Source: Minisyncoccota bacterium
GTDB taxonomy: Bacteria; Patescibacteriota; Minisyncoccia; Phycocordibacterales; UBA9973
Direction of reading: 5' to 3'
Assembly: GCA_041661005.1 (NCBI GenBank)
Contig: JBAZVG010000001.1
Coordinates: 543,515-607,514 of the forward strand
Length of the DNA: 64,000 nucleotides
This document shows positions 9,734-46,522 of the stretch, piece after piece. The notes under the pieces are model-generated. The model had not been told where the DNA came from. It did no database searches and saw only the letters and a list, made by a program, of their open reading frames with translations. Position 1 is the first letter of the stretch; every line of letters starts with the position of its first letter. The translations under genes and the position numbers were made by a program.

Positions 9734-9734
9734 A

Positions 9735-10358: not shown

Positions 10359-10390
10359 ATCTTTATCTTAGCTCTCCTTCGCTGAAAAAG

Positions 10391-11476
10391 CTACGAACGG
10401 GCAAGCCTTTCCTTTATCTCTCTTGCAAGATATGGATTCCACATTGCCCCTGTGGCAGACATTACAATATCCGCCCCAGCATTTCTGTATTCAAAAAAAT
10501 CTTCTGGCGTAGCGACTCCACCGACCCCAATAATAGTATAATTTAAACCCAATTCGTCGCGTAATTTTTTTAACCTTTTCGCCATATCAAGCCCCGCCCA
10601 TTTTATAGCATGCCCACAAACCCCGCTTCTTGATCTCGCATCGCCCGGCAGAGCCTGTTTGCCGTTTTCATCAACAATTTCCGCGGAAATCGTATTGATA
10701 GCGGAAATGCCTTGCACCAAAGATCCAACCTCTTTAATAAAACTTCGCAACTTTTCTTCATCTTGGAAGAATGAAATTTTAATAACAAGAGGGACGTCTT
10801 TTATTTCATCTTTTATAGCTCTTGCAACCTTGACGCTGCGCTCTGTATCGTAACAAAGTAAATTATTTGTTCCTTCGTTTGGGCAACTCAGATTTACCTC
10901 CATCACTTTTACGCCTGTATCCCTAAGCAATCGGGCCGTCAAAACAAAATCATTTATGTATTCTTCGGCGCTTTGTCCCTCCTTTTTTGTTCCCTGAAAA
11001 CTTCCTACCACGATCTGACCAAGGCGAGCATTTTTGACAACTCTTGCTAGATCTTTCTGCCAAAATTCTGGATCAGTTGACGGCACGCCAAAAGAATTGG
11101 TGATAGAAAGAGGTTCATGATAATTTCTGTTCGCCTCTAATTTACTTTCAGCTTTTTTAAAAGTTAAATCTCCATCAATCTTTACGGACAAAACATTCGG
11201 CCACTCGTGACAAGGATATTTACTGCTCCGCACCGTTTTATAAGTCACAATGTCAAAACCTTTATCTAACGCTGCCTGAACAAAGTTGCCATTGATAAGT
11301 GGACCAGCCGGAATGCCAAAAGGTGAATCTACTTTAAAACCAAAAAAATTATACTTGCCATTTTCAGTAAGGACTCCCCTTGCTGAAGTTGCTGAAATTG
11401 CAAAGGCGCCAAAAGGACCATCTTTAAAATTTTCCTCGTAGGATTTTTCTGGATCGTAAAATGGGAAGTGAGGCAT
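10391..11476 (-). CDS. pyrD: Dihydroorotate dehydrogenase
   Basis: 361 aa TIM-barrel flavoenzyme with FGIPAGPL and NLSCPN motifs. Confidence 0.85.
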   Translation of the reverse strand: MPHFPFYDPEKSYEENFKDGPFGAFAISATSARGVLTENGKYNFFGFKVDSPFGIPAGPLINGNFVQAALDKGFDIVTYKTVRSSKYPCHEWPNVLSVKIDGDLTFKKAESKLEANRNYHEPLSITNSFGVPSTDPEFWQKDLARVVKNARLGQIVVGSFQGTKKEGQSAEEYINDFVLTARLLRDTGVKVMEVNLSCPNEGTNNLLCYDTERSVKVARAIKDEIKDVPLVIKISFFQDEEKLRSFIKEVGSLVQGISAINTISAEIVDENGKQALPGDARSRSGVCGHAIKWAGLDMAKRLKKLRDELGLNYTIIGVGGVATPEDFFEYRNAGADIVMSATGAMWNPYLAREIKERLARS

Positions 11477-11481
11477 AGTTT

Positions 11482-12399
11482 CTATAAATTGAGACTAAAA
11501 AGTAATACCGCCATTCGAATGTATAAACCATTTTGTGCCTGACGAAAGTAGGCTGCGCGAGAATCTAGATCAATTGCTGAATCAACTTCATTTACCCTTG
11601 GTAAGGGATGCATGATGATCGCCTCTTTCTTTAATCTTTTTAAATGTTTTGTTTTTAGTAAAAAAGCATCTTTAACTTTATTGTAATCCTCAATATTTGA
11701 GAACCGTTCTTTCTGCACTCGTGTCATATACAAAACATCTATATCTGGTATTATTTTTTCTAGATTATCCATTTCTAAAAAAGAAACTTTTTTATTACGT
11801 AAATATTCTCGATATTCTTCTGGCAAAACTAATTCTTTCGGAGAAACAAAATAAAATTTATTGTCTGGATATAGCATCAAAAGCGGGACAAGCGAACGAA
11901 GCGTTCTGCTGTTTAACACATCACCCACAAAGGCAATGGAAATATTATCCAATCTTCCATGTTCTTTTTTTATAGTGTAAAGATCAAGAAATCCCTGGGT
12001 CGGATGCTGGTTAGCGCCGTCTCCAGCATTTATTATTGGCTTAGTTGAGACTTTCGAAGCAGTCTCCGCCGCTCCCATCTTCGGATGACGCATGACGATA
12101 AGGTCGGCGTAACAATTGAGCATTTTTGTCGTATCCTCAACCGTTTCACCTTTATAAGCAGAAGAACTGGAAGACGCGTTCTCAACAGAAATCACACTGG
12201 CTCCGAGTTTGATCGCCGCTGTTTCAAAAGACAATCGAGTGCGGGTGGATGGTTCAAAAAAAATAGAAGCTACAATTTTATTTTCTAGTTGTTTGCCATT
12301 TTTACCGCTTTTACAAAGCTTTTCCATCTTTGAAGCGACCGACAAAATCTTTTCAACATCTTTCTTCTCAAATTGTTTTGTATCCAAAATGTGTCGCAT
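11482..12399 (-). CDS. pyrB: Aspartate carbamoyltransferase catalytic subunit
   Basis: 305 aa with STRTR, HPTQ and HPLP motifs. Confidence 0.9.
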   Translation of the reverse strand: MRHILDTKQFEKKDVEKILSVASKMEKLCKSGKNGKQLENKIVASIFFEPSTRTRLSFETAAIKLGASVISVENASSSSSAYKGETVEDTTKMLNCYADLIVMRHPKMGAAETASKVSTKPIINAGDGANQHPTQGFLDLYTIKKEHGRLDNISIAFVGDVLNSRTLRSLVPLLMLYPDNKFYFVSPKELVLPEEYREYLRNKKVSFLEMDNLEKIIPDIDVLYMTRVQKERFSNIEDYNKVKDAFLLKTKHLKRLKKEAIIMHPLPRVNEVDSAIDLDSRAAYFRQAQNGLYIRMAVLLFSLNL

Positions 12400-12405
12400 A
12401 TAATT

Positions 12406-15400
12406 TTAATTATTGAGATACTCCCTATATGATTTAATTTCTAAATCCGAGATCACATAGCGCGCCAATGCTTTGATAAATGCTCGCGCCAGATGCAAAT
12501 CAGTAAATAAAGGAATTTGATTATCGACCGTAGCCCTTCTGATACGAAAACCATCCGTGATGGTTTTCGCCAAAATTCCACTTTCGTCCTCTTTATTTAA
12601 ATTTATCACAAAAGCCACTTGCTTGCTAAGAATTGCATCGAGAACATTCGGAGATTGCTCGGACGCTTTCCTGACAATTATACAATCTACATTCTTATTT
12701 TTCAAAAACTCTCCGGTCGTATCGGTAGCCAAAATCTTATAATCAAGTTCTATCAACATTCGCGTTGCTTCTAAAAATTTTGCCTTATTCAAGTCTCCTC
12801 CAAGGGAAAGAAGAACAGTTTTCCTATTGAAATCAAATTTGTTGGCGCTTAAAATCGACTTTAGCAAGGCTTCATCATAATCTTTGCCAAAACAAGCCAC
12901 TTCCCCAGTCGAAGACATTTCTACCCGCAAAATAGGATCCGCGCCTGAAAGTCTGGCAAATGAAAATTGTGGCGACTTCACTATTACATTCTCTGGATAT
13001 GTAAATTTATGCATCTTGGCCACGCCCAAAAATGCGTCCACTGCAACTTCAGAAAAATTAACATCCATAGCCTTTGATAACAATGGAAAAGTTCGACTAG
13101 CGCGTAGATTCACTTCGATCACAGATGGGTGATTATCTTTTACTAAAAATTGGATATTGAAAGGTCCGGTGATATTGAGTTCTTTGGCTATTTTTTTAGA
13201 AATTTCACGCAGTTGAAATTCAGTGGAAGCGTAGACGCGCTGAGTTGGAAAAACTATCGTAGCATCGCCTGAATGGACGCCAGCATTTTCCACATGTTCA
13301 GAAATTCCGTAAATCATAATTTCTCCCCCTTGCGCAACCGCATCAAATTCAAGCTCTTTGGCATGTTCTATATATTGAGAAATAGTAACTGGATATCCGG
13401 GAGAAAGTCTGGAGGCTTTCATAATAAAATCCCGCAATTGGCGCTTGTCATAACATACGCTCATAGCAGAACCGGAAAGCACATAAGAAGGTCGCACCAA
13501 AACCGGAAAACCTGTTTTGTCTGTAAATTTGAGAGCTTGAGACATGTTGGTAAAACTCTGCCATCTCGGCTGGGCAATTTGAAGCTTATCTAAAAGCGCT
13601 GAAAAAAGATTGCGATCCTCAGCTTGATTAATATCGAAAGCTTTAGTGCCTAGAATATGAAAACCTTCTTTGGAAAGTTTTTGAGCCAGATTGTTTGGAC
13701 GCTGTCCGCCCACGGAGATGACAAGCCCGTAAGCATTTTCAAATTCAAAAATATCAGCCACAGTTTCAAAAGACAAGTCTTCAAAGTAGAGACGGTCGGA
13801 CATGTCATAATCAGTGGAGACAGTTTCCGGATTGCAGTTTATGATTATAGATTTTTTCTGATGTCGTTTAAATGCCATCGCCGCGTGCACACAAGACCAG
13901 TCAAATTCAACGCTGGAACCTATATGATACGAACCGCTCCCGAGCACCAAAACGGCATCTTTGCCAAATGCGGAAACGTCATTATAATTTGCATGATAAG
14001 TGAGATAAAGATAATTAGTTTTCGCCGGAAATTCTCCAGCCAAAGTATCAATGGCCAGGACTCTTGGTAAAATATTCAGACTTTTTCTTAATTTTCTTAT
14101 TTCTAATTCCTCCTTTCCACAAAGCGCGCCTATTTTTTTGTCGGAAAAGCCGGCTTGCTTTAATTCTAAGACTTTTTCTCTATTTAATTTTTTATTTTTT
14201 GAAAAAGCTTTTTCCATACGAACTATGTTTTCCAATCTAAACAAGAACCACGGATCAATGCCTGTGATTTTATAGATCGAAGCCACAGATGCGCCTTTTT
14301 TCATGGTTTCAGCAATGGCAAATAATCTCTTTGGAGTCGGAATCGATAAAAATTTTTTTAATTCTTTTCCATTTTTGAAACCATTATCAGTCACCCCTCC
14401 CGCTAGTCCGGACTGCATGCGCACTGCTTTTTGGATAGCTTCTTCAAAACTTCGGCCAATAGCCATGACCTCTCCCACCGACTTCATTGCGCTACCAATT
14501 TTTTCTTCCGCGCCCTTAAATTTTTCCAAATCCCATCTGGGCATCTTTACGACTACATAATCGAGCGCCGGCTCAAAAAAACTCTGAGTAACTTTGGTTA
14601 TTTTATTTTTGATTTCTAGCAAGCTGTGTCCGAGCGCAAGTTTTGCCGCTACATACGCGAGCGGATAACCAGTTGCCTTTGAAGCTAGCGCGCTCGAACG
14701 GGAAAGCCGAGCGTTAACTTCGATAACAAAAAAATCTAGCCCCTCACCCCCTCCTCCCCCTCTCCCCGAAGGAGAGGGGGACGGATTTAAGGCATATTGC
14801 ACATTGCACTCTCCGACAATTTTTAGACTCTCAACTATTTTTATGCTTGCCTCTCGCAGTCCGTGATATTCACTATTTGATAAAGTCTGACTCGGTGCCA
14901 CCACAATAGAGTCACCAGTATGGATTCCCAGCGGATCAAAATTTTCCATGTTGCATACTGTAACAATATTTCCAAATCTGTCTCGGACTACTTCATACTC
15001 TATTTCCTTAAAATGATGCAAATATTTTTCTATTAGAACTTGGGGGCTGACAGCTAACGCTCCTTCTACTATTTCCCTTAGATCTCGTTCGTTTTTCGCA
15101 ACACCTGATTTCTGCCCACCCAATGTGAAAGCTGCCCGCACCATTAGCGGGAATCCGATTTCTTTCGCAATTTTTTTCGCCTCTTTCAAATTCGTGGCAG
15201 AGCCAGAAGGTGGCACCGGAATTCCGATTTTTTTTAAATGATCGGCGAAAAACTGACGATCTTCGGTCAATTCAATAGAAGAAATAGGAGAACCAAGAAC
15301 TTGCACATTATATTTTTTCAAAATTCCTTTCTTCTCCAAACTAAGTCCGCAATTTAGCGCTGTCTGTCCGCCAAAAGACAGCATGATTCCGTCCGGGTGT

Positions 15401-15648
15401 TCTTTGATTATGACTTTCTCAACAAAATAATCATTGATTGGCAAAAAATAAACTTCATCGGCTAAGGTTTTGGAAGTTTGAAAAGTTGCAATATTTGGAT
15501 TCACCAAAATGACTTTAATTTTTTCTTCTTTCAGGGCTTTGATGGCCTGACTGCCACTATAATCAAATTCCCCCGCTTCACCTATTTTCAACGCTCCGGA
15601 ACCCAAGACCAATATTTTTCTGAATTTATTTTTATTAATTTTTGTCAT
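12406..15648 (-). CDS. carB: Carbamoyl-phosphate synthase large subunit
   Basis: 1080 aa with duplicated ATP-grasp halves and an MGS-like C-terminus. Carries an in-frame low-complexity insertion (SPSPSPSGRGGGGGEG) encoded by a GC-rich palindrome at ~14748-14790. Confidence 0.95.
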   Translation of the reverse strand: MTKINKNKFRKILVLGSGALKIGEAGEFDYSGSQAIKALKEEKIKVILVNPNIATFQTSKTLADEVYFLPINDYFVEKVIIKEHPDGIMLSFGGQTALNCGLSLEKKGILKKYNVQVLGSPISSIELTEDRQFFADHLKKIGIPVPPSGSATNLKEAKKIAKEIGFPLMVRAAFTLGGQKSGVAKNERDLREIVEGALAVSPQVLIEKYLHHFKEIEYEVVRDRFGNIVTVCNMENFDPLGIHTGDSIVVAPSQTLSNSEYHGLREASIKIVESLKIVGECNVQYALNPSPSPSGRGGGGGEGLDFFVIEVNARLSRSSALASKATGYPLAYVAAKLALGHSLLEIKNKITKVTQSFFEPALDYVVVKMPRWDLEKFKGAEEKIGSAMKSVGEVMAIGRSFEEAIQKAVRMQSGLAGGVTDNGFKNGKELKKFLSIPTPKRLFAIAETMKKGASVASIYKITGIDPWFLFRLENIVRMEKAFSKNKKLNREKVLELKQAGFSDKKIGALCGKEELEIRKLRKSLNILPRVLAIDTLAGEFPAKTNYLYLTYHANYNDVSAFGKDAVLVLGSGSYHIGSSVEFDWSCVHAAMAFKRHQKKSIIINCNPETVSTDYDMSDRLYFEDLSFETVADIFEFENAYGLVISVGGQRPNNLAQKLSKEGFHILGTKAFDINQAEDRNLFSALLDKLQIAQPRWQSFTNMSQALKFTDKTGFPVLVRPSYVLSGSAMSVCYDKRQLRDFIMKASRLSPGYPVTISQYIEHAKELEFDAVAQGGEIMIYGISEHVENAGVHSGDATIVFPTQRVYASTEFQLREISKKIAKELNITGPFNIQFLVKDNHPSVIEVNLRASRTFPLLSKAMDVNFSEVAVDAFLGVAKMHKFTYPENVIVKSPQFSFARLSGADPILRVEMSSTGEVACFGKDYDEALLKSILSANKFDFNRKTVLLSLGGDLNKAKFLEATRMLIELDYKILATDTTGEFLKNKNVDCIIVRKASEQSPNVLDAILSKQVAFVINLNKEDESGILAKTITDGFRIRRATVDNQIPLFTDLHLARAFIKALARYVISDLEIKSYREYLNN

Positions 15649-16726
15649 ATTCTTTATTTGTTTTTATCCCCGCCTTTTTTAAGAAAAAATCAAATATCCA
15701 GCCCGTATCAAGGGGTCCCGGAGAACTCTCTGGATGAAATTGCACCGACATGAAAGGCAAGCTTTTGTGAATAATTCCTTCATTGGTGCCATCATTCGCA
15801 TTGTGAAACCATTCTTGGAAACCTTCTGGGATTTTCTTGATCGCAAAACCATGATTTTGAGTTGAAAGATATGCTCGCTTGGCGCCGATTTCCATAACTG
15901 GCTGATTTTGACTGCGATGCCCAAATTTAAGCTTGTAAGTGGTGCCACCAGACGCCAATGCCAAGATTTGATTGCCCAAGCAAATGCCAAAAATCGGAAT
16001 TTTTCTATCAATAATTTTCTTTACATTTTTTATAGTTGCCTGCGCCATAGTCGGGTCACCCGGACCGCTGGAAATAACTACAGCATCAAAAACGCTATCA
16101 AGTTTGGTGACATCTGTATCCCAAGGCACCACAACAACTTTCAATCCCCTCCAAACGAGACTGCGAATTATGTTTAGCTTCACTCCGCAATCTATCAATA
16201 CAATCGTATTTTCACCAACACCGCTCGTCCATATTTTTTTTGTGGAAACTTCAGCCACCAGATTTCTCAAGTTCGGATCTTCGAATGAGACAATCTCATT
16301 TTTATTTTTTTCCTGAAACTGAATTTTCCCTAGCATCACACCTTCGGTCCGCAGTTTCTTGGTCAATTCACGAGTATCTTTAACCTCTAGCGCTGGAATA
16401 TTTTGTTCCTTGAGCCATTTGGATAGAGTCATCGTCGAAGAATGATGAGACGGCGTATCAATATAATTACATACTATGAGACCAGATATTTGTATCTTGC
16501 CGGACTCCCACAATTCCTTTTTAGGAACACCATAATTCCCAATAAGCGGATAAGTCATTATCAAAATCTGACCAGCAAAAGAAGGATCGGTAATGGCCTC
16601 CGGATAACCCACCATGCCAGTCGCAAAAACAACTTCGCCAGAAATAGATTTTTCCGCACCAAAACTTTTACCCTCATAAGAGCTTCCGTCTTTTAATACT
16701 AATTGGGCTGTTTTATTTGTTTTCAT
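15635..16726 (-). CDS. carA: Carbamoyl-phosphate synthase small (glutaminase) subunit
   Basis: 363 aa, class I glutamine amidotransferase (GICLGNQ...HGFA). Overlaps carB by 14 nt. Confidence 0.9.
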   Translation of the reverse strand: MKTNKTAQLVLKDGSSYEGKSFGAEKSISGEVVFATGMVGYPEAITDPSFAGQILIMTYPLIGNYGVPKKELWESGKIQISGLIVCNYIDTPSHHSSTMTLSKWLKEQNIPALEVKDTRELTKKLRTEGVMLGKIQFQEKNKNEIVSFEDPNLRNLVAEVSTKKIWTSGVGENTIVLIDCGVKLNIIRSLVWRGLKVVVVPWDTDVTKLDSVFDAVVISSGPGDPTMAQATIKNVKKIIDRKIPIFGICLGNQILALASGGTTYKLKFGHRSQNQPVMEIGAKRAYLSTQNHGFAIKKIPEGFQEWFHNANDGTNEGIIHKSLPFMSVQFHPESSPGPLDTGWIFDFFLKKAGIKTNKEYDKN

Positions 16727-17942
16727 ATACTTTACCTTTAATAACAGTCATAACTACACTACCCGGAAAGGTCACATTTAAAAATGGCGACTGGCGCGAT
16801 TTGGTTTTTAGTTCTTTTTCCATTATTTTTACTTGCTTATCCATATCCAAGACAGTAAAAGAACCAACATATCCTTTTTCTATTCTGCCGTATTTATCTG
16901 GGGTAAATTTATTGATAAAATTCCCAGGATTGTAACTGCAAACCCTTGCGATGTTTTCGGGAATAAAATTGTGTTCTTTCATCAACCATGCAACAAATGG
17001 ACCGTAAGTATCGAGATGCGTGAGCCCAGAAATGCCTTTTTCTTTTTCCTCAATAGTGTGCGGAGCATGATCTGTCGCCAGATAATCTATGTCACCATTC
17101 TTAAGCGCGGCAATCATGCTGAGACGATTACTCTTTGTCTGACGTATAGGCGGATTCACTTGAAAGTTTCTCTTGTTCTTGGGAAGCATGGTCTCGTCAA
17201 AAAATAAGTGATGAGGCGTCACCTCGACAGTCACATTTATTCCACGTTTTTTTGCATTTATTATTTTATTTATCCCCTCTAAGGTAGAACAATGGCAAAT
17301 CTTCCCAGTGAGGTTATATTTTTCAATGAGTTTCAAGGCAAAATCCACGGCGGAAATTTCGGCCTCAGGTGGACGCCTTGCTTCATGCACATCTCTGTCT
17401 GCATTTTCTTTTAAAATTTCAGGATCTTCACAATGAAAACTTACGTGCTGATTTTTATATTTCTCTAAAGCCTTTTCCAACTCTTCATTCGAAGTAAAAA
17501 ATAAATCTCCAACAGATTGTCCCATAAAAACTTTGTAAGGAACTATTTTGGAGAGGGGTTTTGTGCTTGGCCCAATGCCAGCATAAAGAATTATGGTAAC
17601 AGGAGACTTTTCTGTTAAATCACTTTTTGTTTTAAAACTTGCATCATCTATCGGTGGCACCGGATTATTCGGCATCTCTGCAAAAGCGACCACTCCACCA
17701 TTTATCGCCGCCTCGCCTGCGCTCTTGAAATCTTCCTTATAATCCTGTGTATGACCTGCATCTTCCCTCGCATGCACATGCAAATCTATAAATCCCGGGA
17801 AAATTAATTCATCTTTAAAAATAAAATCCGCAGTCCCAGTAGGTTCGCTAACTTTTAAAATCAATCCGCTTGCTTCATCTATCTCGATTCTACCTCGCGA
17901 GACTTTATCCTTATCCACAATGTTGCCTTCAATGCTAATCAT
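16713..17942 (-). CDS. pyrC: Dihydroorotase
   Basis: 409 aa amidohydrolase with DLHVHAR... metal-binding motif. First gene of the pyr operon. Overlaps carA by 14 nt. Confidence 0.85.
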   Translation of the reverse strand: MISIEGNIVDKDKVSRGRIEIDEASGLILKVSEPTGTADFIFKDELIFPGFIDLHVHAREDAGHTQDYKEDFKSAGEAAINGGVVAFAEMPNNPVPPIDDASFKTKSDLTEKSPVTIILYAGIGPSTKPLSKIVPYKVFMGQSVGDLFFTSNEELEKALEKYKNQHVSFHCEDPEILKENADRDVHEARRPPEAEISAVDFALKLIEKYNLTGKICHCSTLEGINKIINAKKRGINVTVEVTPHHLFFDETMLPKNKRNFQVNPPIRQTKSNRLSMIAALKNGDIDYLATDHAPHTIEEKEKGISGLTHLDTYGPFVAWLMKEHNFIPENIARVCSYNPGNFINKFTPDKYGRIEKGYVGSFTVLDMDKQVKIMEKELKTKSRQSPFLNVTFPGSVVMTVIKGKVYENK

Positions 17943-23642: not shown

Positions 23643-25028
23643 CTACACTGGCACGAAAGTCAGCGCTGTGCCAGCTTTGCCACTTCGGCCGGTTCGGCCG
23701 ATACGATGCACATAGGTGTCGTAAGTTTGAGGCACATCATAGTTTATAACGTGTGTAACATCTGGAATATCAAGCCCCCTAGCGGCAACATCAGTCGCAA
23801 TCAAAATATTAATTTTATCTTGTTTAAATGAATCCAAAATGCGAATACGTTCACGACTTCTTTTGTCACCATGAATTCCGCCCACTTTGAATCCCATTGT
23901 GTGTAATTCTTTGGCGAGCGTATCCACGCTATGTTTCATCTCGCGGAAAATTAAAACCTTTTGGGTCGGACCGCTTGCCCCGCCGTGGCGTGGGTCTTTT
24001 TTCAAGACTTCATGCAACTTTTCTAACTTTTCTTCTTTGGTACGCACGCGAATTACGTCTTGATCAATATTTTTCGCCGTCTCGCCAGAGACGACAGAAA
24101 TAAAAGCTGGATCTTTCAAATATTGCTCAGTCATTTTTCTAATTTCTGGAGAAAGAGTCGCTGAAAAGAAAAGGGTTTGGCGTTCCTTTGCTGTCTTCCC
24201 TATTATAAACACCATATCATCTCGGAATCCCATATCAAGCATTCTGTCAGCTTCATCTAGCACGACACTGTGGCAAGTCGACAAGTCTAAAACTTTTTTC
24301 TCAATCAAGTCTCGCAAACGTCCGGGTGTGCCGATGACAAACGAAACTCCGAGCTTTATTTCCCTAATTTGTTTCATTATCGGCAATCCACCCACACATG
24401 CGACGGAAAACATCCCAAATCCAAAAGCTAGAGTTTTAAAATCACTTTCTATCTGAAGCGCGAGTTCACGAGTCGGCGCCATTATTAAAACTGTCTCTCT
24501 TTTATTTTGTCCTTTTGTTTTAGAAATTTTCTCAATTAAGGGAAGCAAGAAAGCTGCAGTTTTTCCTGTGCCAGTATTTGCCATACCAAAGACATCTTTG
24601 CCGGCTAAAATCGTCGGTATTGCTTGATCTTGAATTGGCCTAGGATTTTCAAAACCAGCTCCTTTTATATTTTTATGAAGTTGTGGATTAAAAGGAAAAT
24701 CGAGAAATGTGTGTCGGGAAACATAAGGTTTTTCCTCCACTCGAACACCTTTTTTAATGAAACGCGAAAAATCTATCCGTTCACCACGAGATCTCTTATT
24801 GCTTGAACGTCTAAAATTGCCCCCGCCTGCAACGCTATGCGTAGCATTGCGGGCAGGTCCAAAACGAGGACGAGAATTATTAAACCTGCCTCGACTTGCG
24901 CTGGACAAGGCGGGTTTTCCACTGCTTGAGTTGTATTTTGCTTTGTGAGCAAAAGTATGACTGCTAAATTTTTTCGGGTTAGCCGAATGGCTCGCCCGTA
25001 GGGCTATGCCCGAGGGATGTTTATACAT
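23643..25028 (-). CDS. DEAD-box ATP-dependent RNA helicase with ~110-aa R/S/G-rich N-terminal region
   Basis: Q motif (FENPRPIQ), motif I (GMANTGTGKT), DEAD (VLDEADRM), SAT, HRIGRTGR. The first ~20 codons overlap a family D mini-palindrome, so the true start is uncertain. Confidence 0.85.
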   Translation of the reverse strand: MYKHPSGIALRASHSANPKKFSSHTFAHKAKYNSSSGKPALSSASRGRFNNSRPRFGPARNATHSVAGGGNFRRSSNKRSRGERIDFSRFIKKGVRVEEKPYVSRHTFLDFPFNPQLHKNIKGAGFENPRPIQDQAIPTILAGKDVFGMANTGTGKTAAFLLPLIEKISKTKGQNKRETVLIMAPTRELALQIESDFKTLAFGFGMFSVACVGGLPIMKQIREIKLGVSFVIGTPGRLRDLIEKKVLDLSTCHSVVLDEADRMLDMGFRDDMVFIIGKTAKERQTLFFSATLSPEIRKMTEQYLKDPAFISVVSGETAKNIDQDVIRVRTKEEKLEKLHEVLKKDPRHGGASGPTQKVLIFREMKHSVDTLAKELHTMGFKVGGIHGDKRSRERIRILDSFKQDKINILIATDVAARGLDIPDVTHVINYDVPQTYDTYVHRIGRTGRSGKAGTALTFVPV

Positions 25029-25137: not shown

Positions 25138-26487
25138 ATGCCAAACATAGATAATTTAAAACATAGTCAAGTACAAATCAAAGGAGGTGGAAAAGTTATT
25201 GTTTTAGATACTGGATCAGTTATTGGTCCTGAAGCTGACGCTATGCTTCAGGCGCTCCATTCCAGATCTGTCGGAGGATTGGAAAGCCATCTCAAAATAC
25301 TTTCCGAAAAAGGACCGAATAATTTTATGAAAAATTTCTATGTCGGATATGGACATAAGTCTATAGGCGACTGTGGGAGTACTTCCCTTTTTATTGAGGG
25401 AATATCAATGCTCACAGCTAAGGCAATCCAAGATTGGGCACTTTATTCAGGACAAGAATCTTCGACTAGATACATTGATTTTCAAACTCAGCCTTTTAAA
25501 AATATACTAGGTACAAAAGAAGGAGAAGATATTCTTGAATCATATAGAAAATTTTATGTCGAAGCACTTCAACCGACAAAAGAATATTTAAAATCACAAT
25601 TCCCCCTTGATGCAGGTGAAAAGGAAAATATTTATATTAAAGCAATTGATGCCAGAGCCTTTGACATATTGAGAGGATTCTTACCAGCAGGATCAGCAAC
25701 TAACGTAGCTTGGCATACAAACCTGAGACAAGCAGCAGACAAAATAATGCTTCTTCGTCATCATCCGTTAGAAGAAGTAAGAAATGTTGCAAAAGCCATA
25801 GAGGAAGCTTTGCGCATGGCATTCCCAAATTCATTCGGACATGAACGTTATGAAAATACGGAAAATTACAATAAAGAATGGATGGAAAAAGATTATTATT
25901 ACCACGATAAAAACTGTCCGGATTTCAAAATGGTTAATAACTCTATAAACACTGATTTACTGCCAAGAAAAATTTTACAAAGCAGGCCAATAAAAACTGA
26001 ATTGCCAAAATATCTGGCTGAAGCTGGAAATTTACAATTTGAATTTTTACTTGATTTCGGGTCTTTTCGTGATTTACAAAGACATCGTGCGGTAATTCAA
26101 AGAATGCCACTCCTAACTACAGAAATTGGTTTTGAAAAATGGTATCTAGGTGAACTTCCTAAAGAATTAAAAAATAAAGCGGAATTATTTCTTAAAAAAC
26201 AAGAACAAAAAGTAAATAATTTAAAAATTTCAAAGGAAGAAAAGCAGTACTACACAGCCATGGGTTATCTTACTTCAAATAGGTTAACAGGAAATATCCC
26301 CGCTTTAGTTTATTTAGCAGAACTACGAGCTACAAGATTCGTGCATCCGACATTAAGAAAAAGGGCAAAAATGATAGCTGATACATTGTCGGAACTTTTA
26401 GGCAAATTTGGATTAGTAATGCATTTAGATAAAGAAATAGATAGATTTGATATTAAGCGCGGAGAACATGATATTGTTTTAAAATGA
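25138..26487 (+). CDS. Tandem-domain ThyX-like (flavin-dependent thymidylate synthase-like) protein
   Basis: 449 aa, two ThyX-like halves. Half 1 has ...YSGQESSTRYIDF and ...ATNVAWHTNLRQAADKIMLLRHHPLEEVRNVAKAIEEAL. Half 2 has ...FRDLQRHRAVIQ (the RHR motif) and ...ALVYLAELRATRFVHPTLRKRAKMIADTL. Each half lacks part of the canonical RHRxxxxxS...SQRY signature that the other retains. Confidence 0.5.
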   Translation: MPNIDNLKHSQVQIKGGGKVIVLDTGSVIGPEADAMLQALHSRSVGGLESHLKILSEKGPNNFMKNFYVGYGHKSIGDCGSTSLFIEGISMLTAKAIQDWALYSGQESSTRYIDFQTQPFKNILGTKEGEDILESYRKFYVEALQPTKEYLKSQFPLDAGEKENIYIKAIDARAFDILRGFLPAGSATNVAWHTNLRQAADKIMLLRHHPLEEVRNVAKAIEEALRMAFPNSFGHERYENTENYNKEWMEKDYYYHDKNCPDFKMVNNSINTDLLPRKILQSRPIKTELPKYLAEAGNLQFEFLLDFGSFRDLQRHRAVIQRMPLLTTEIGFEKWYLGELPKELKNKAELFLKKQEQKVNNLKISKEEKQYYTAMGYLTSNRLTGNIPALVYLAELRATRFVHPTLRKRAKMIADTLSELLGKFGLVMHLDKEIDRFDIKRGEHDIVLK

Positions 26488-26488
26488 T

Positions 26489-26821
26489 TTAGGGATCCTC
26501 GGGAGTTTTTATTCGAATAAAAATGTCTTCGCCCTCAGGTGATTTTTCTTTTCTATATTTTCTCTTCTTATTTTTTTCTATTTTGGCAATTAATTCTTTT
26601 TCCATATCAAAACCCATCGCTTCGCACATCCCAAGAATAAAAATCATTACATCCGCAAATTCCTCCGCCACACCGGGCTGATTCTTATTATGTTTAGAAA
26701 ATGCTTCAGAGAGCTCTTCATGCGCTCGACAGAATTCAAGCGCAACATTAGTTGTATTAAAACCTTTCTCCAACTTATTTCTCATTACCTCTTTTTGTAA
26801 TTCTTTTAAATTTATAGACAT
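26489..26821 (-). CDS. Small MazG-like all-alpha nucleoside triphosphate pyrophosphohydrolase
   Basis: 110 aa with EELSEA...EEFADVMIFILGM (the EExxE/D metal-binding helices of the MazG/HisE superfamily). Confidence 0.6.
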   Translation of the reverse strand: MSINLKELQKEVMRNKLEKGFNTTNVALEFCRAHEELSEAFSKHNKNQPGVAEEFADVMIFILGMCEAMGFDMEKELIAKIEKNKKRKYRKEKSPEGEDIFIRIKTPEDP

Positions 26822-26826
26822 TTTAT

Positions 26827-27360
26827 TTATTGATCTTTATATGATTCTATTTCTTTATTCACAATTTCCAATTTTACTCCCGATTTTTTAAAAACATTTT
26901 TTGACTGCTCAGTTAGATGATAATTTTTAAAAGCAACAACACGTTTAATCCCCGCATTGATAATTGTTTTCGCACAAGTATAACAAGGAACCATTTTGCA
27001 ATATAGTGTTGCCCCATCAATCACAACACCGTGCCGGGCGGCATTCGCGATAGCGTTCAATTCTGCATGAGCTGTCCTGAGACAATGACGAGAAACTGTT
27101 CCATCTTCATTCGTGAGAGTATGCATCTCATGACCCACCTCGTCACAATGAGGAAGTCCAACCGGAGAACCCACGTAGCCAGTAGCAAGAATTCTTTTAT
27201 CTTTTACCAAGATTGCGCCTGAGCGTCCACGATCACAAGTTCCACGTGAACCGACAAGTTCTATCATTTGTAAGAAATACTCGTCCCAGGATGGACGTTT
27301 GTGTTTTGTAACTTTTTCGACAGTCTTTTTCATATCTCTAATATACTCCAAAAATATCAA
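26827..27360 (-). CDS. dCMP deaminase (CMP/dCMP-type zinc deaminase)
   Basis: 177 aa with HAELNAI...PCYTCAKTII (the H-A-E and PC-x-x-C zinc motifs). Confidence 0.8.
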   Translation of the reverse strand: MIFLEYIRDMKKTVEKVTKHKRPSWDEYFLQMIELVGSRGTCDRGRSGAILVKDKRILATGYVGSPVGLPHCDEVGHEMHTLTNEDGTVSRHCLRTAHAELNAIANAARHGVVIDGATLYCKMVPCYTCAKTIINAGIKRVVAFKNYHLTEQSKNVFKKSGVKLEIVNKEIESYKDQ

Positions 27361-27482: not shown

Positions 27483-28511
27483 CTAATCTTTTTTTCCAAG
27501 CGCTTTTAACACTTTTAAATACATGGCTTCAACTATCTTTTTCTGTTTTTTACCAGTTGTAACATAGTGATCCAACCCCGGAGCGGCGTTAATCTCGATA
27601 ATATAATAACTACAATCTTTAGGATTTTGGGTTATATTTCCCTTTGTGACCATGATGTCCACCCCTGCAATACGTAGCCCCATTTTTTTTGTAAGTTCTA
27701 TGGCAATTTTCTGAAACTTTTTATGAATTACGTCAGTAACATCAACAGAATCTCCACCAGTGGACAGATTTGCGTTATCCAGTAGAAATATTTGCTGGTT
27801 TTTTTTGAGGATACTTTTAAAACTTAAAGTTTGTCTTGCCAATTTGTTTTTAATTCTTTCGTCAGAAAAATTTATTTTTGTATCTCGCTTATCAAAAATA
27901 AAATTCCTTTGTTTTTGTTTCAAAAGTGAAAGTACCGAACTTTTTCCATCTCCAGTAACAGAAAGTGGTATTCGTTCATAAGCAGAAATTATTTTTTCAT
28001 CGAGAACCACGATGCGATAATCGAGCCCCGGTAAATATCGCTCAATAATCGCTATTTTATCTGTCTTGAAAATTTCCAGCAGTACTCGCTTCAACTCTTT
28101 ATCATTCCAAACAAGAGCCACACCGGAACCTTGGCTCTGGCTATTTGGCTTTGCTATAACTGGATATCCTAAATGTTTCGCATATTTTATCCCTGACAAA
28201 ATTGTGCGATTGCTTTTTATGGCTTTAGCCCAGGAATCTTTAAAAAAAGTCCGTCCTTTCGCTACCGGATACCCGAGCTTTTTCATGAAAAATTTGGCGT
28301 AATCTTTATCTTTAGCAATATCCGCTGAAGCGACATGATTCAAGTCCAAAGAATAAAAACGCAATGACCTAGTGATGCCATTTGGATAAATTATTTGAGC
28401 TACGACTCCCCATTCCGGCTCGATCACAATCTTTGCGCCAATTTTCGGCGCAAGTTTTTTTAGAAGATTAGTCAAATACGGAAAAGATGGTTTTTTATTT
28501 CTTTTTTTCAT
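27483..28511 (-). CDS. ATP-grasp ligase, RimK/CofF/cyanophycin-synthetase-like
   Basis: 342 aa with ...NLSTGGDSVDVT...GVDIMV...YIIEINAAPGLD, which is comparable to RimK SNLHRGG...VDIL...MEVNASPGL. Overlaps the upstream cofE-like gene by 17 nt. Confidence 0.55.
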   Translation of the reverse strand: MKKRNKKPSFPYLTNLLKKLAPKIGAKIVIEPEWGVVAQIIYPNGITRSLRFYSLDLNHVASADIAKDKDYAKFFMKKLGYPVAKGRTFFKDSWAKAIKSNRTILSGIKYAKHLGYPVIAKPNSQSQGSGVALVWNDKELKRVLLEIFKTDKIAIIERYLPGLDYRIVVLDEKIISAYERIPLSVTGDGKSSVLSLLKQKQRNFIFDKRDTKINFSDERIKNKLARQTLSFKSILKKNQQIFLLDNANLSTGGDSVDVTDVIHKKFQKIAIELTKKMGLRIAGVDIMVTKGNITQNPKDCSYYIIEINAAPGLDHYVTTGKKQKKIVEAMYLKVLKALGKKD

Positions 28512-29217
28512 CTTTTATGATTTTTAAATTGGAAAAAAGCGGGGCATAAATATCTTTACTTGGATTAATGACAAGCTCTCCTCGTTTTATCTTATTAGTA
28601 AAAGTCACTGGCGCATTAGAAATGACCGCGAGGGGTTGCTTTTCTTTTCCCTCACCCATGCAAAGCACCGCAGATGTGGCCAAGCTATCTGCGATATCAG
28701 TCTTAGACATTTTCAAAACCCTGCCAAAAATATCTTTAGCGCCTACATAGTTTCGAATACCCTCAAATCCAGCGTAACTCAACGCCACACCCACAACCCC
28801 TGCGCGAAGTGGCATAAGTCTTGAGTCTGTTATTAAAACTCCTAGATTTTTTAAGTGAAAATGTCGCATTAATTTTCGACGTAAAACCTCTGCGCTTTTA
28901 AAACTATTTTTAGGCAAAAGAATTAGCTTCCCATCGGCATTAGACTCATCAATGCCAGCATTCGCCATCACTATGCCATTTTTAATGGAAAGCCAGACAA
29001 GTTTAGTCTTTAAGGCAAAATCACTTTCTTGTTTTATTAGAGCGACTTTTTGCTTTTCATTTTTATAGTCTACAGTCCTTCCCTCGGCAAGCGCAACAAT
29101 TTTAGAAGTCACGACTAAAACAGATTTCTCAGGAATTTTTTTAACGTATTTTAAAATAAATTGGAGCAAGTTTTCGTCTTTCCGAAATATTCTAGTTTTG
29201 ATTGCTTTGATTTGCAT
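28495..29217 (-). CDS. CofE-family gamma-glutamyl ligase-like protein (F420-0:gamma-glutamyl ligase family)
   Basis: 240 aa with VLVVTSKIVALAEGR and IVMANAGIDESN, the two hallmark CofE/FbiB-N motifs. No other F420 genes in the window. Confidence 0.6.
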   Translation of the reverse strand: MQIKAIKTRIFRKDENLLQFILKYVKKIPEKSVLVVTSKIVALAEGRTVDYKNEKQKVALIKQESDFALKTKLVWLSIKNGIVMANAGIDESNADGKLILLPKNSFKSAEVLRRKLMRHFHLKNLGVLITDSRLMPLRAGVVGVALSYAGFEGIRNYVGAKDIFGRVLKMSKTDIADSLATSAVLCMGEGKEKQPLAVISNAPVTFTNKIKRGELVINPSKDIYAPLFSNLKIIKDEKKK

Positions 29218-29854
29218 TTGGATTACCTCTAAGGAGTTTAATACCTAAATATGAGAGCGGAGTGTAAAACAAGCCCATCAAAACTTTATACAGCCACCAA
29301 GTAATAATGATACTGATTAAGGTTTTTGTCTCATAAATCCCGGCGAAAGCAATTAACATAAACAAGGCACTGTCGAGCAGCTGCGACCAAAGATTTGATA
29401 AGAGTGAGCGCAACCAGAAAAATTTAGGTCCTAATTTTTCTCGAACAAAGAAGAAAGTAAACACATCTTGATATTCAGCCACGATAAATGCTACGAGAGA
29501 TGCTAAAGCCATTCGGCCAGAAATACCAAAAATAAGGTTGTAACCTTCTTTTGCCCAAAGTCCCTGCTCTGCCCAAGGCAACCATAATGACAATAAAGAA
29601 TACAGAATAAATAAAGCGGTGCTGATAAAACCGGCCCTCACGAATAACTTTGCTAAACGCTTGCCGTAAACTTCTCCGATTACGTCAGTCATCAAAAATA
29701 CTATCGGGAATGAAAACACGGCCACGGACAAATGCGATCCAAACAGAAAAGGCATAATTTTTAAGCCTAAAGTATTCGCCGCAAAAAGAGAAGTAAGATA
29801 AAGGGTCAAACAAATAAGGATTTTCTTATAATCTCTTTCAGTAAGTGTTTGCAT
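29192..29854 (-). CDS. VUT/DUF165-family transporter (YhhQ-like putative queuosine-precursor or vitamin transporter)
   Basis: 220 aa with six predicted TM helices. Length and topology resemble YhhQ-type proteins. Assignment is from memory of the family and is moderate. Confidence 0.45.
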   Translation of the reverse strand: MQTLTERDYKKILICLTLYLTSLFAANTLGLKIMPFLFGSHLSVAVFSFPIVFLMTDVIGEVYGKRLAKLFVRAGFISTALFILYSLLSLWLPWAEQGLWAKEGYNLIFGISGRMALASLVAFIVAEYQDVFTFFFVREKLGPKFFWLRSLLSNLWSQLLDSALFMLIAFAGIYETKTLISIIITWWLYKVLMGLFYTPLSYLGIKLLRGNPNANQSNQN

Positions 29855-42849: not shown

Positions 42850-42935
42850 AATTGGGTGCCTATTCGGTTATGCTCCGAATCTAAGAGCTCCACAAGCTCT
42901 TGTGCTACTATTACACCATAGGCACCATGTATTGA
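42850..42935. other. Nested multi-hairpin element between the P-type ATPase and the DUF1003 gene
   Basis: GGTGCCTAT[TTCGG..CCGAA][TAAGAGCT-ccaca-AGCTCTT]...ATAGGCACC: a 9-bp outer stem enclosing two inner hairpins. Confidence 0.3.
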
Positions 42936-46513: not shown

Positions 46514-46522
46514 ATGTTTTTG

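What the first reader, a model, noticed from the sequence alone, without database searches (positions are those of the whole stretch)
25138..27360. Thymidylate cluster with a tandem-domain ThyX whose halves have complementary motif degeneration
A 449-aa protein contains two ThyX-like domains. Domain 1 keeps the SxxxSxRY portion (YSGQESSTRYIDF) and the C-terminal Arg helices but lacks RHR. Domain 2 keeps RHR (DLQRHRAVIQ) but lacks the Ser/Tyr part. Canonical ThyX forms active sites across subunits of a homotetramer. A fused pseudo-heterodimer in which each half supplies one part would be a covalently linked version of that arrangement. The gene sits opposite a dCMP deaminase (dUMP supply) and a 110-aa MazG-like pyrophosphatase (a possible dUTPase substitute). 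Together these form a compact dTMP-synthesis module.
Basis: partly seen in the sequence, partly recalled or inferred. Interest (0 to 1): 0.6.

Follow-up and report, generated by a model that had tools for sequence, protein, structure and literature searches.

The report
Fused two-domain ThyX thymidylate synthase
This gene most likely encodes the cell's flavin-dependent thymidylate synthase in a fused, two-domain form whose halves each keep only part of the catalytic residues; the form is widespread in Patescibacteria, already annotated as ThyX, and uncharacterised in everything I could search.

Summary
ORF 25138-26487 (+) encodes a 449-aa protein with two ThyX-like halves. Half 1 keeps GQESSTRY but has D-W-A where RHR should be. 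Half 2 keeps RDLQRHR but lacks the Ser/Arg/Tyr loop.

The split is a family trait. It holds in 128 representatives that are under 50% identical to each other, in at least 578 species genomes (the best 80 are all Patescibacteria-type MAGs), and in jumbo phages.

Published ThyX and PolB structures show that RHR plus R174 come from one subunit and E86/S88/R90/R147 from a neighbour. Here the first set survives only in half 2 and the second only in half 1. The expected enzyme is a homodimer that mimics the ThyX tetramer, with two working sites and two degenerate ones. This is inferred, not shown.

A thymidylate synthase role is well supported. In 61 of 70 related loci the gene lies beside dCMP deaminase, dCTP deaminase, dUTPase or thymidylate kinase. 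One locus carries a thyA remnant directly downstream.

The MazG-like gene is a conserved partner of the dCMP deaminase and coexists with a true dUTPase in one relative, so "dUTPase substitute" is not supported.

The protein is already annotated as ThyX, and a ThyX domain duplication was noted in 2009. Interest is moderate.

The parts
25138..26487 (+). Fused two-domain ThyX-like gene (449 aa), the probable flavin-dependent thymidylate synthase
   Evidence: ORF. Pfam Thy1 61 bits. 100% identical NCBI protein named FAD-dependent thymidylate synthase. AF2 model pLDDT 95, pTM 0.91. All significant PDB matches are ThyX or PolB.
25138..25887 (+). Half 1 (aa 1-250): supplies the dUMP-loop role (canonical subunit C) and the FAD-phosphate role (subunit B); the RHR position is degenerate
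   Evidence: hhalign against a canonical ThyX profile: E=8.8e-6, aa 63-235 to Tm 43-204. Residue table.
25354..25362 (+). H73-K-S75, equivalent to Tm H53/T55 (folate and FAD contacts)
   Evidence: H73 is 124/128 and S75 is 128/128. Mtb Ser71 of subunit B binds FAD.
25420..25440 (+). K95-A-I-Q-D99-W100-A101: the degenerate position of R74...R78-H79-R80
   Evidence: K95 is 122/128, D99 is 105/128, position 100 is variable, position 101 is mostly Pro.
25450..25473 (+). G105-Q-E107-S-S109-T-R111-Y112: the retained dUMP-binding loop (Tm E86, S88, R90, Y91)
   Evidence: E107 125/128, S109 128/128, R111 128/128, Y112 125/128.
25672..25728 (+). R179 (Tm R147, dUMP phosphate) to R197 (Tm R165, FAD phosphate)
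   Evidence: R179 119/128, R197 105/128. PolB R166' lies on the same monomer as S96'/R98'. Mtb R190 of subunit B.
25888..26484 (+). Half 2 (aa 251-449): supplies the RHR/R174 role (canonical subunit A); the dUMP loop is degenerate
   Evidence: Pfam 13.1 bits, E=0.084. hhalign E=5.2e-4, aa 298-422 to Tm 59-199, with RHR aligned on RHR. The order of secondary-structure elements parallels half 1 in the pLDDT-95 model. Isolated half 2 cannot be separated from decoys with a simple HMM.
26068..26088 (+). R311-D-L-Q-R315-H316-R317: the retained ThyX RHR motif with the preceding R74/Q75 equivalents
   Evidence: R311, D312, R315 and R317 are 128/128; H316 is 112/128.
26245..26247 (+). Q370: the position of Tm R147, lost in half 2
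   Evidence: Q in 124/128.
26326..26346 (+). R397 (Tm R174, uracil contact) to H403
   Evidence: Both 128/128. The register of H403 (Tm H178 or Q180) is uncertain.
26458..26463 (+). Invariant C-terminal R441-G442, with no assigned canonical counterpart
   Evidence: 128/128 and 122/128. Also kept in the phage BONAISHI homolog.
26489..26821 (-). MazG-like all-alpha NTP pyrophosphohydrolase (110 aa), co-transcribed partner of the dCMP deaminase
   Evidence: PF12643 30 bits against 27. EExxE...EExxD motifs intact. Weak PDB matches to pyrophosphatases and DCTPP1. Lies directly downstream of the deaminase in the window, L009, L012 and L034.
26827..27360 (-). dCMP deaminase (ComEB-like); the probable start is the ATG at 27333
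   Evidence: PF00383 81.6 bits. HAE and PCxxC motifs. Found near the ThyX-like gene in 27 of 70 loci.

Best explanation
The 449-aa protein is the organism's flavin-dependent thymidylate synthase (ThyX/FDTS, dUMP to dTMP using CH2-H4folate, FAD and NAD(P)H). It arose from an ancient tandem duplication and fusion of the ThyX domain.

In canonical ThyX, each of the four sites is built from three identical subunits:
- Subunit A gives R74/Q75, RHR and R174.
- Subunit B gives T55 and R165, which bind the FAD phosphates.
- Subunit C gives E86, S88, G89, R90, Y91 and R147, which bind dUMP.

In the fused protein, half 2 has kept only the A role. Half 1 has kept only the B and C roles.

Two chains should therefore form a homodimer that mimics the 222 tetramer, with the half 2 domains in positions A and D and the half 1 domains in positions B and C. 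That arrangement gives two complete composite sites, each made of half 2 from one chain and half 1 from both chains. The other two sites are degenerate.

Shown here: the ThyX fold, the residue partition and its conservation, and the pathway context.

Inferred: the dimeric assembly, the two-site stoichiometry, and catalysis.

The adjacent dCMP deaminase supplies dUMP. The MazG-like pyrophosphatase co-transcribed with it probably makes a dNMP from a dNTP. dCTP to dCMP, feeding the deaminase, is the most economical guess.
For: Family and fold:
- Pfam Thy1 scores 61 bits against 24.8.
- The AF2 model has pLDDT 95 and pTM 0.91.
- All 33 PDB matches with E<=1e-3 are ThyX or PolB, with TMt 0.60-0.66 and RMSD about 4.2 A over about 217 columns.
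- hhalign gives half 1 E=8.8e-6 and half 2 E=5.2e-4, both in the correct motif register.

Partition of catalytic residues:
- Subunit roles come from PMC6514825 and PMC5003785.
- R311, D312, R315, R317 and R397 are invariant in half 2. Half 1 has K, A, D, a variable residue and a gap at those positions.
- E107, S109, R111, Y112, R179, S75 and R197 are conserved in half 1. Half 2 has M, L, a gap, T and Q at the aligned positions and P at the R165 position; the T55 position could not be aligned.
- The same split is present in a jumbo-phage homolog at 32% identity.

Not an assembly artefact:
- More than 4,200 full-length homologs of about 450 aa.
- 1,896 cluster representatives.
- At least 578 species genomes.
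- Full-length structural matches in BFVD: TMq 0.89, RMSD 3.0 A over 461 columns.

Function from genomic context:
- 61 of 70 loci have dCMP deaminase, dCTP deaminase, dUTPase or thymidylate kinase close by. Tmk is present in 41 of 70, and within 1.5 kb in 33.
- L020 has the same-strand cluster dCMP deaminase, kinase, ThyX-like, HD, dUTPase, Tmk.
- L010 has a ThyA C-terminal remnant directly downstream.
- The window's CofE-like neighbour best matches a putative folate gamma-glutamate ligase (FolC2 precedent in PMC1971073).
- No thyA or canonical thyX lies in the 64-kb window.
Against: - There is no biochemical or structural data for this form in anything I could search.
- The NCBIfam thyX equivalog scores 21.9 against a cutoff of 87.9.
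- Neither a single-sequence nor a family-profile search of PDB sequences finds any ThyX.
- Isolated half 2 cannot be told from reversed decoys with a canonical ThyX HMM, so its ThyX ancestry rests on profile-profile alignment, motif register and the model.
I therefore could not check that the two halves pack like a canonical ThyX interface, and no dimer was modelled.
- The rest of the 813-kb genome could not be searched for thyA.
- The residues that replace RHR in half 1 (K95, Q98, D99, P101) are themselves conserved, so the 'dead' sites may not be inert.
Confidence: 0.72

Rival explanations
1. It is a ThyX-fold flavoenzyme with a different substrate or product, not the housekeeping dTMP synthase. 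Possibilities include a UMP or dCMP C5-methylase like PolB, or an enzyme that makes a modified pyrimidine.
For: It is very divergent from characterised ThyX: TIGR02170 scores 21.9 against 87.9, and there is no PDB ThyX hit by sequence. PolB shows that the fold can take UMP. Homologs occur in jumbo phages, which often modify their bases.
Against: All canonical dUMP and FAD ligands are retained across the two halves. The gene sits with dCMP deaminase, dUTPase and thymidylate kinase in 87% of loci. A thyA remnant lies at the same position in L010. It is a near-universal single-copy gene in at least 578 Patescibacteria species.
Confidence: 0.08
2. Only one half is functionally relevant. The other is a structural or regulatory pseudo-domain, and the apparent complementarity is incidental.
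For: Half 2 is barely recognisable as ThyX by sequence. The two halves align to each other only at E=0.011.
Against: Half 1 alone lacks RHR and R174, which bind the FAD phosphates, the isoalloxazine ring and the uracil. The residues that are invariant in half 2 are exactly those missing ligands. A 128/128 conservation of R311, D312, R315, R317 and R397 is hard to explain for a scaffold.
Confidence: 0.08
3. The fused chain works as a monomer or in some other assembly. One composite site forms within the chain, and other residues, such as the invariant R441-G442 tail or S42-R43, stand in for the third-subunit contacts.
For: The AF2 monomer is very confident (pTM 0.91). Invariant residues with no canonical counterpart exist (R441, G442, S42, R43). 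No oligomer data are available.
Against: In canonical ThyX the B-role and C-role residues at one site come from two different subunits. Both roles survive only in half 1, which argues for two copies of half 1 per site.
Confidence: 0.1
4. It is an assembly or gene-calling artefact that joins two adjacent thyX genes or fragments.
For: None beyond the unusual length.
Against: There are thousands of independent full-length homologs of about 450 aa from NCBI, JGI, ENA and Logan assemblies, plus cultured-phage genomes. The reading frame is continuous. The single-chain model is confident.
Confidence: 0.01

Closest known systems
Canonical homotetrameric ThyX/FDTS (T. maritima TM0449, M. tuberculosis ThyX, H. 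pylori ThyX; EC 2.1.1.148)
   Same: Same fold. Same set of FAD and dUMP ligands when both halves are taken together. Same pathway context.
   Different: About 220-250 aa with one domain, against 449 aa with two. The contiguous motif RHRxxSxxxxSxRY in one chain is here split between two domains. Four identical sites are replaced by a predicted two intact and two degenerate sites. Sequence divergence is large enough that the NCBIfam equivalog and PDB sequence searches fail.
'Duplicated ThyX' noted in Chloroflexi and 'a few other species' (Valas & Bourne 2009, PMC3224940)
   Same: ThyX with an internal domain duplication, stated to be uncharacterised.
   Different: I could not test whether the Chloroflexi proteins belong to this same family and share the split motif. 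That paper gives no residue-level analysis.
Two-domain ThyX-like proteins of phages (Vibrio phage BONAISHI ORF269 'thymidilate synthase-like', vB_VmeM-Yong phages, Microcystis phage LMM01 491-aa 'thymidylate synthase')
   Same: Full-length homology: 31-33% identity over 86-96% of the protein. Same split motif. Same overall two-domain structure: TMq 0.89 and 0.72.
   Different: Viral genes whose local context is hypothetical proteins. Also uncharacterised.
PolB, the UMP/dUMP C5-methylase of polyoxin biosynthesis (PDB 4P5A/4P5B)
   Same: ThyX fold and an FAD-dependent methylation site shared between monomers.
   Different: Single-domain homotetramer that accepts UMP and belongs to secondary metabolism.
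Herpesvirus monomeric dUTPase (duplicated and fused trimeric-dUTPase fold whose conserved motifs are split between the halves); from my own knowledge, not tested here
   Same: Same evolutionary logic in the same pathway: a site shared between subunits becomes a site shared between domains after duplication and fusion, and the redundant copies of the motifs decay in a complementary way.
   Different: Unrelated fold and reaction. It gives a single site in a monomer rather than two sites in a dimer.
C. trachomatis ThyX (CT632); a lead from my memory that it is a long form of about 529 aa with characterised FDTS activity (Griffin et al. 2005)
   Same: If my memory is right, it is a biochemically validated long-form ThyX.
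   Different: Not verified. The papers are not held and no named chlamydial homolog appeared in any search.

Membership tests
ThyX / Thy1 (PF02511; flavin-dependent thymidylate synthase) | Pfam Thy1 domain above the gathering score | tested here: met
   61 bits against 24.8 for the whole protein. Half 1 alone scores 51.7 bits. Half 2 alone scores 13.1 bits, below the gathering score.
ThyX / Thy1 (PF02511; flavin-dependent thymidylate synthase) | NCBIfam TIGR02170 thyX equivalog above its cutoff | tested here: not met
   21.9 bits against a cutoff of 87.9.
ThyX / Thy1 (PF02511; flavin-dependent thymidylate synthase) | ThyX fold | tested here: met
   For the pLDDT-95 model, all 33 PDB matches with E<=1e-3 are ThyX or PolB, with probability 1.00 and TMt 0.60-0.66. 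The output does not say which half was aligned.
ThyX / Thy1 (PF02511; flavin-dependent thymidylate synthase) | Contiguous ThyX motif RHRxxS(x)4SxRY within one domain | tested here: not met
   Half 1 has D99-W-A...S104...S109-T-R111-Y112. Half 2 has R315-H-R317 followed by A-V-I-Q-R-M-P-L-L-T. Every motif residue is present, but the motif is split between the two domains.
ThyX / Thy1 (PF02511; flavin-dependent thymidylate synthase) | Full set of FAD and dUMP ligands (Tm H53, T55, R74, Q75, R78, H79, R80, E86, S88, R90, Y91, R147, R165, R174) | tested here: met
   All are present once per chain when the halves are combined, and they are conserved in 105-128 of 128 representatives. Q75 is D312.
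ThyX / Thy1 (PF02511; flavin-dependent thymidylate synthase) | Homotetramer with four active sites at three-subunit interfaces | not testable with these tools
   Model coordinates are not exposed and no multimer prediction is available. The residue partition predicts a pseudo-tetrameric homodimer with two sites.
ThyX / Thy1 (PF02511; flavin-dependent thymidylate synthase) | FAD-bound enzyme that converts dUMP to dTMP with CH2H4folate and NAD(P)H; complements thyA | not testable with these tools
   This needs biochemistry and genetics.
ThyX / Thy1 (PF02511; flavin-dependent thymidylate synthase) | Genomic association with dTMP-pathway genes, and ThyA absent | tested here: inconclusive
   The association is strong: 61 of 70 loci, the L020 cluster, and a thyA remnant in L010. 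Absence of thyA could be checked only in the 64-kb window, where there is none, not in the whole genome.
MazG-like all-alpha NTP pyrophosphohydrolase (PF12643) | Pfam match above the gathering score, and EExxE...ExxD metal-binding motifs | tested here: met
   30 bits against 27. E35-E36-x-x-E39 and E53-E54-x-x-D57 are present.
dUTPase (PF00692) as the identity of the 110-aa protein | Trimeric dUTPase domain, or evidence that the protein replaces Dut | tested here: not met
   There is no PF00692 match. In L034 the orthologous MazG-like gene (75% identity) coexists with a true dUTPase (PF00692, 99.7 bits).
dCMP deaminase (PF00383; ComEB-type) | Cytidine/deoxycytidylate deaminase zinc-binding domain with HAE and PCxxC motifs | tested here: met
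   81.6 bits against 25. HAE at aa 98 and PCYTC at aa 125. The TIGR02571 ComEB equivalog scores 124 against a cutoff of 219, which is not met.

The most novel reading that the evidence does not exclude
The two 'degenerate' sites of the pseudo-tetramer are not dead but repurposed. The residues that replace RHR in half 1 (K95, Q98, D99, P101) are conserved. So are residues with no canonical counterpart (S42-R43, and the C-terminal R441-G442). Together these could form a dedicated binding or regulatory site for NAD(P)H, a folate polyglutamate tail or an effector nucleotide. That would physically separate steps that compete for one overlapping pocket in canonical ThyX. The adjacent FolC2-like ligase, ATP-grasp ligase and Vut_1 transporter would then supply a specially glutamylated folate to this enzyme.
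Probability: 0.1. Interest if true: 0.7.

Novelty: new member of a known kind. Interest (0 to 1): 0.4.

Why it matters
ThyX is essential in many bacteria, is absent from humans and is a drug target. Its sites, each shared by three subunits, make it hard to assign a role to each subunit, because every mutation hits all four sites at once.

The fused form is a natural asymmetric ThyX. Mutations in half 1 or half 2 would affect only one role at each site, and the predicted two-site stoichiometry is directly measurable.

It also appears to be the standard thymidylate synthase of a very large bacterial radiation: at least 578 Patescibacteria species genomes, plus some jumbo phages. A structure and enzymology of one member would cover much uncharacterised biology.

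It would also explain why equivalog models and simple homology searches under-call this protein.

As a genome feature it is not surprising. It is already annotated as ThyX, and the duplication was noted in 2009.

Tried and rejected
1. PDB sequence searches with the single protein and with a family profile found no ThyX. The relationship shows only through Pfam, profile-profile alignment and structure.
2. The first AF2 model, from a shallow alignment, was mediocre (pLDDT 69). It was replaced by a model from a deeper alignment (pLDDT 95).
4. Model coordinates are not exposed, so there was no geometric test of the interface between halves or of the composite site. No structure jobs remained for a dimer.
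5. I could not put organism names on distant representatives: two cluster look-ups and a third homolog search returned only unnamed metagenomic proteins.
6. Exact-sequence contig look-up of the window protein failed. I used a 75%-identical relative instead.
7. Literature searches for tandem, fused, pseudo-tetrameric or CPR ThyX found only the one-sentence mention by Valas & Bourne 2009. The primary ThyX structure and Chlamydia papers are not held.
8. A canonical-ThyX HMM run against the isolated halves showed that half 2 cannot be separated from reversed decoys. This is reported as a limitation.
9. Promoter and terminator scans were no better than chance.
10. The gene-fusion artefact idea is rejected because of the thousands of full-length homologs.
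11. 'MazG-like protein replaces dUTPase' is rejected as a general statement because the two coexist in L034.
Full report
**Observation**

The window region holds three ORFs as described:
- a 449-aa ORF at 25138-26487 (+);
- a convergent 110-aa ORF at 26489-26821 (-);
- a 177-aa ORF at 26827-27360 (-), with a likelier ATG start at 27333.

Pfam assigns the 449-aa protein to Thy1/ThyX (PF02511, 61 bits against a gathering score of 24.8, two stretches). It assigns the 110-aa protein to MazG-like (PF12643, 30 against 27) and the third to dCMP/cytidine deaminase (PF00383, 81.6 bits).

Scanned separately, half 1 (aa 1-248) scores 51.7 bits and half 2 (aa 249-449) only 13.1 bits, E=0.084. The NCBIfam thyX equivalog is far below its cutoff (21.9 against 87.9). 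Neither the protein nor a family profile finds any ThyX among PDB sequences. This is therefore a distant ThyX relative.

- K95-AIQ-D99-W-A101 occupies the RHR position in half 1.
- G105-QESST-R111-Y112 follows it.
- R311-DLQ-R315-H-R317 lies in half 2.

**Is the two-domain reading real?**

I verified my recalled T. maritima TM0449 sequence against the PDB. It matches at 219 of 220 residues, and the S88A, R174K and Y91F mutant entries confirm the numbering. I then built a canonical ThyX profile and compared it with profiles of each half, made from 128 diverse full-length family members:
- Half 1 aligns to Tm 43-204 with E=8.8e-6.
- Half 2 aligns to Tm 59-199 with E=5.2e-4. RHR falls on RHR and R397 on R174.
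- The two halves align to each other only weakly (E=0.011), so the duplication is old.

An AlphaFold2 model from a 41-sequence diverse alignment is very confident (pLDDT 95, pTM 0.91). From the third strand onward, half 2 repeats the element order of half 1 and of canonical ThyX: strand, helix, loop, long helix, helix, strand, helix, helix. RHR sits at the C-terminal end of helix 307-314, and R397 at the end of helix 387-397.

All 33 PDB matches with E<=1e-3 are ThyX or PolB chains (TMt 0.60-0.66, RMSD about 4.2 A over about 217 columns). None spans both halves, so no two-domain ThyX has been solved.

One caveat applies. A canonical ThyX HMM cannot separate isolated half 2 sequences from reversed decoys. 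Half 2's ancestry therefore rests on the profile-profile alignment, the motif register and the model.

**The split is a conserved family trait**

The identical protein is in NCBI as 'FAD-dependent thymidylate synthase [Candidatus Paceibacterota bacterium]'. More than 4,200 homologs of about 450 aa were scored, and the top 120 are at least 71% identical. An exhaustive search of 50%-identity cluster representatives found 1,896 (483 at E<=1e-30), mostly 430-500 aa and full length. A scan of species-representative genomes found at least 578 carriers, and the best 80 are all Patescibacteria-type MAGs.

Across 128 representatives, each under 50% identical to the others, conservation is as follows:
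- S109, R111, R311, D312, R315, R317, R397, H403 and R441 are 128/128.
- E107 and Y112 are 125/128.
- H73 is 124/128 and S75 is 128/128.
- R179 is 119/128 and R197 is 105/128.

Full-length homologs with the same split also occur in jumbo Vibrio phages and Microcystis phages. Two viral predicted structures match across the whole chain: TMq 0.89 with RMSD 3.0 A over 461 columns, and the LMM01 'thymidylate synthase' with TMq 0.72. An assembly or gene-fusion artefact is excluded.

**Mechanism**

The review PMC6514825 describes one canonical site as follows:
- Subunit A gives RHR (FAD phosphates and ribityl, isoalloxazine, dUMP) and the C-terminal Arg (Mtb R199, equivalent to Tm R174).
- Subunit B gives Ser71 and Arg190 (Tm T55 and R165), which bind FAD.
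- Subunit C gives Ser105, Arg107 and Tyr108 (Tm S88, R90, Y91) and a backbone contact at Tm E86.

The PolB structure paper PMC5003785 gives the same split independently and adds detail. R82, H83, R86 and R193 (Tm R74, Q75, R78, R174) come from one monomer. E94', S96', A97', R98' and R166' (Tm E86, S88, G89, R90, R147) come from the neighbour.

So the RHR part and the SxRY part of the motif that meet at any one site already belong to different chains. The residue table for this protein shows a clean partition:
- Every A-role residue is invariant in half 2 (R311, D312, R315, H316, R317, R397). In half 1 those positions are K95, A96, D99, a variable residue, P/A101, and a gap at R174.
- Every C-role residue is conserved in half 1 (E107, S109, T110, R111, Y112, R179). 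In half 2 those positions are M323, L325, L326, a gap, T327 and Q370.
- Both B-role residues are conserved in half 1 (S75, R197). In half 2 the R165 position is P388, and the T55 position could not be aligned.

In a 222 tetramer ABCD, the site headed by A uses B and C, and the site headed by D uses C and B. Placing half 2 at A and D and half 1 at B and C gives two complete sites and two sites without RHR.

The prediction is a homodimer (pseudo-tetramer) with two composite sites and about one FAD per chain. This step is inference. I could not access model coordinates or run a multimer prediction.

**Function from context**

In 70 related loci with at least 6 kb of flanking sequence, 61 (87%) carry at least one of dCMP deaminase, dCTP-deaminase-like, dUTPase or thymidylate kinase near the ThyX-like gene. 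Tmk is present in 41, and within 1.5 kb in 33. The dCMP deaminase is present in 27, in two different arrangements.

L020 (a Komeilibacteria MAG) has a tight same-strand cluster, confirmed by Pfam: dCMP deaminase, dNMP-kinase-like, ThyX-like, HD, dUTPase, thymidylate kinase.

L010 (a Dojkabacteria MAG) has dCTP deaminase, the kinase and the ThyX-like gene, followed directly by a 92-aa ORF that matches only the last 62 positions of the ThyA profile. This is a thyA remnant at the same locus. A RibD_C/DHFR-like gene follows.

The window itself has no thyA, canonical thyX, dut, tmk or dcd. The other roughly 750 kb of the contig could not be examined.

**The MazG-like gene**

It has intact EExxE...EExxD motifs and only weak similarity to solved pyrophosphatases, including DCTPP1 and MazZ. 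It lies directly downstream of the dCMP deaminase, on the same strand, in the window, L009, L012 and L034. In closer relatives such as L003 and L001, a dNMP-kinase-like gene occupies that slot.

In L034 the same locus also encodes a true dUTPase and tmk. It is therefore a partner of the deaminase, not a general dUTPase replacement. dCTP to dCMP is a reasonable guess but is untested.

**Comparison with what is known, and novelty**

The protein works like ThyX and belongs to the Pfam family. It fails the equivalog model and lacks a contiguous ThyX motif.

[quoted passage not shown] I found no paper on CPR ThyX or on the split of the catalytic residues.

From memory, C. trachomatis ThyX is a long form with characterised FDTS activity. 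I could not verify this.

The residue-level partition and the two-site homodimer prediction are the added value. Interest is 0.4.

**Seen in passing**

Directly upstream of the deaminase-MazG pair lie three overlapping genes: a Vut_1/YhhQ-family transporter, a CofE-like ligase and an ATP-grasp ligase. The CofE-like ligase's best NCBIfam match is 'putative folate metabolism gamma-glutamate ligase' (220 bits, below the 350 cutoff). The chlamydial CofE homolog CT611 (FolC2) complements E. coli folC (PMC1971073). This may be a folate salvage or glutamylation unit that serves ThyX.

The window also carries a complete de novo pyrimidine operon at 8915-17942.

Noticed in passing
window 27483-29854 (-): Three overlapping genes lie directly upstream of the deaminase-MazG pair. 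They are a Vut_1/YhhQ-family transporter (29192-29854), a CofE-like ligase (28495-29217) and an ATP-grasp ligase (27483-28511; cyanophycin-synthetase, RimK, MptN or CofF-like). The CofE-like ligase's best NCBIfam hit is TIGR04132 'putative folate metabolism gamma-glutamate ligase' (220 bits, below the 350 cutoff). The chlamydial CofE homolog FolC2 complements folC (PMC1971073). This may be a folate salvage or glutamylation unit that feeds ThyX. The ATP-grasp gene also follows the deaminase in L009.
   Followed up: partly
window 8915-17942 (-): A complete de novo pyrimidine (UMP) operon is present: dihydroorotase, CarA, CarB, aspartate carbamoyltransferase, dihydroorotate dehydrogenase, a phosphoribosyltransferase (PyrE-like) and OMP decarboxylase. 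From my own knowledge, this is notable for a Patescibacteria genome, since many lack de novo nucleotide synthesis.
   Followed up: partly
L010 7351-7629 and 8573-9094: In a Dojkabacteria MAG, a 92-aa ORF directly after the ThyX-like gene matches only the C-terminal 62 positions of the ThyA profile (PF00303, 72 bits). It looks like a decayed thyA at the same locus. A RibD_C/DHFR-like gene lies 1 kb further on. This suggests in-place replacement of thyA by the fused thyX.
   Followed up: partly
L020 4904-9048: A Komeilibacteria MAG has a same-strand cluster of dCMP deaminase, dNMP-kinase-like, fused ThyX, HD protein, dUTPase and thymidylate kinase. This is a near-complete dTMP/dTDP module.
   Followed up: yes
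window 26489-27360; L009 11975-12806; L012 9051-9880; L034 7368-8155: The gene pair of dCMP deaminase followed by the MazG-like gene is conserved in four genomes, with gaps of 0-18 nt. In closer relatives (L003, L001/L005) a small AAA_17/18, DNMK-like kinase takes the MazG slot next to the deaminase. The two look like alternative partners of the deaminase.
   Followed up: partly
L083 4884-6326 (Vibrio phage BONAISHI ORF269); MK308674-7; Microcystis phages: Jumbo phages encode full-length two-domain ThyX-like proteins with the same split motif. They are mostly annotated 'hypothetical' or 'thymidilate synthase-like'. BFVD entry A0A6B7EUB9 matches the model at TMq 0.89.
   Followed up: partly
window 26458-26463 and 25261-25266 (R441-G442; S42-R43): These residues are invariant or nearly so across the family (R441 128/128, G442 122/128, S42 126/128, R43 127/128) and have no counterpart assigned in canonical ThyX. 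The residues that replace RHR in half 1 (K95, Q98, D99, P101) are also conserved.
   Followed up: no
window 23643-25028 (-): The DEAD-box helicase upstream of the ThyX-like gene is syntenic in several relatives. It carries an N-terminal extension of about 100 aa that is rich in Ser, Arg and Asn and of low complexity.
   Followed up: no
window 46428-47200 (-): A 225-aa ORF with a weak LAGLIDADG_3 match (29 bits) lies immediately beside tRNA-Leu(GAG).
   Followed up: no
window 42854-42925 and 46428-46513: ARAGORN calls five tRNAs (His, Leu, Arg, Val, Ser). Rfam at gathering threshold reports only three and misses tRNA-His and tRNA-Leu.
   Followed up: no
window 57342-57926 (+) and 62869-63471 (-): An HD_3/YfbR-like protein (a possible 5'-deoxynucleotidase) and a NUDIX hydrolase are further candidate nucleotide-pool enzymes in the window.
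   Followed up: no
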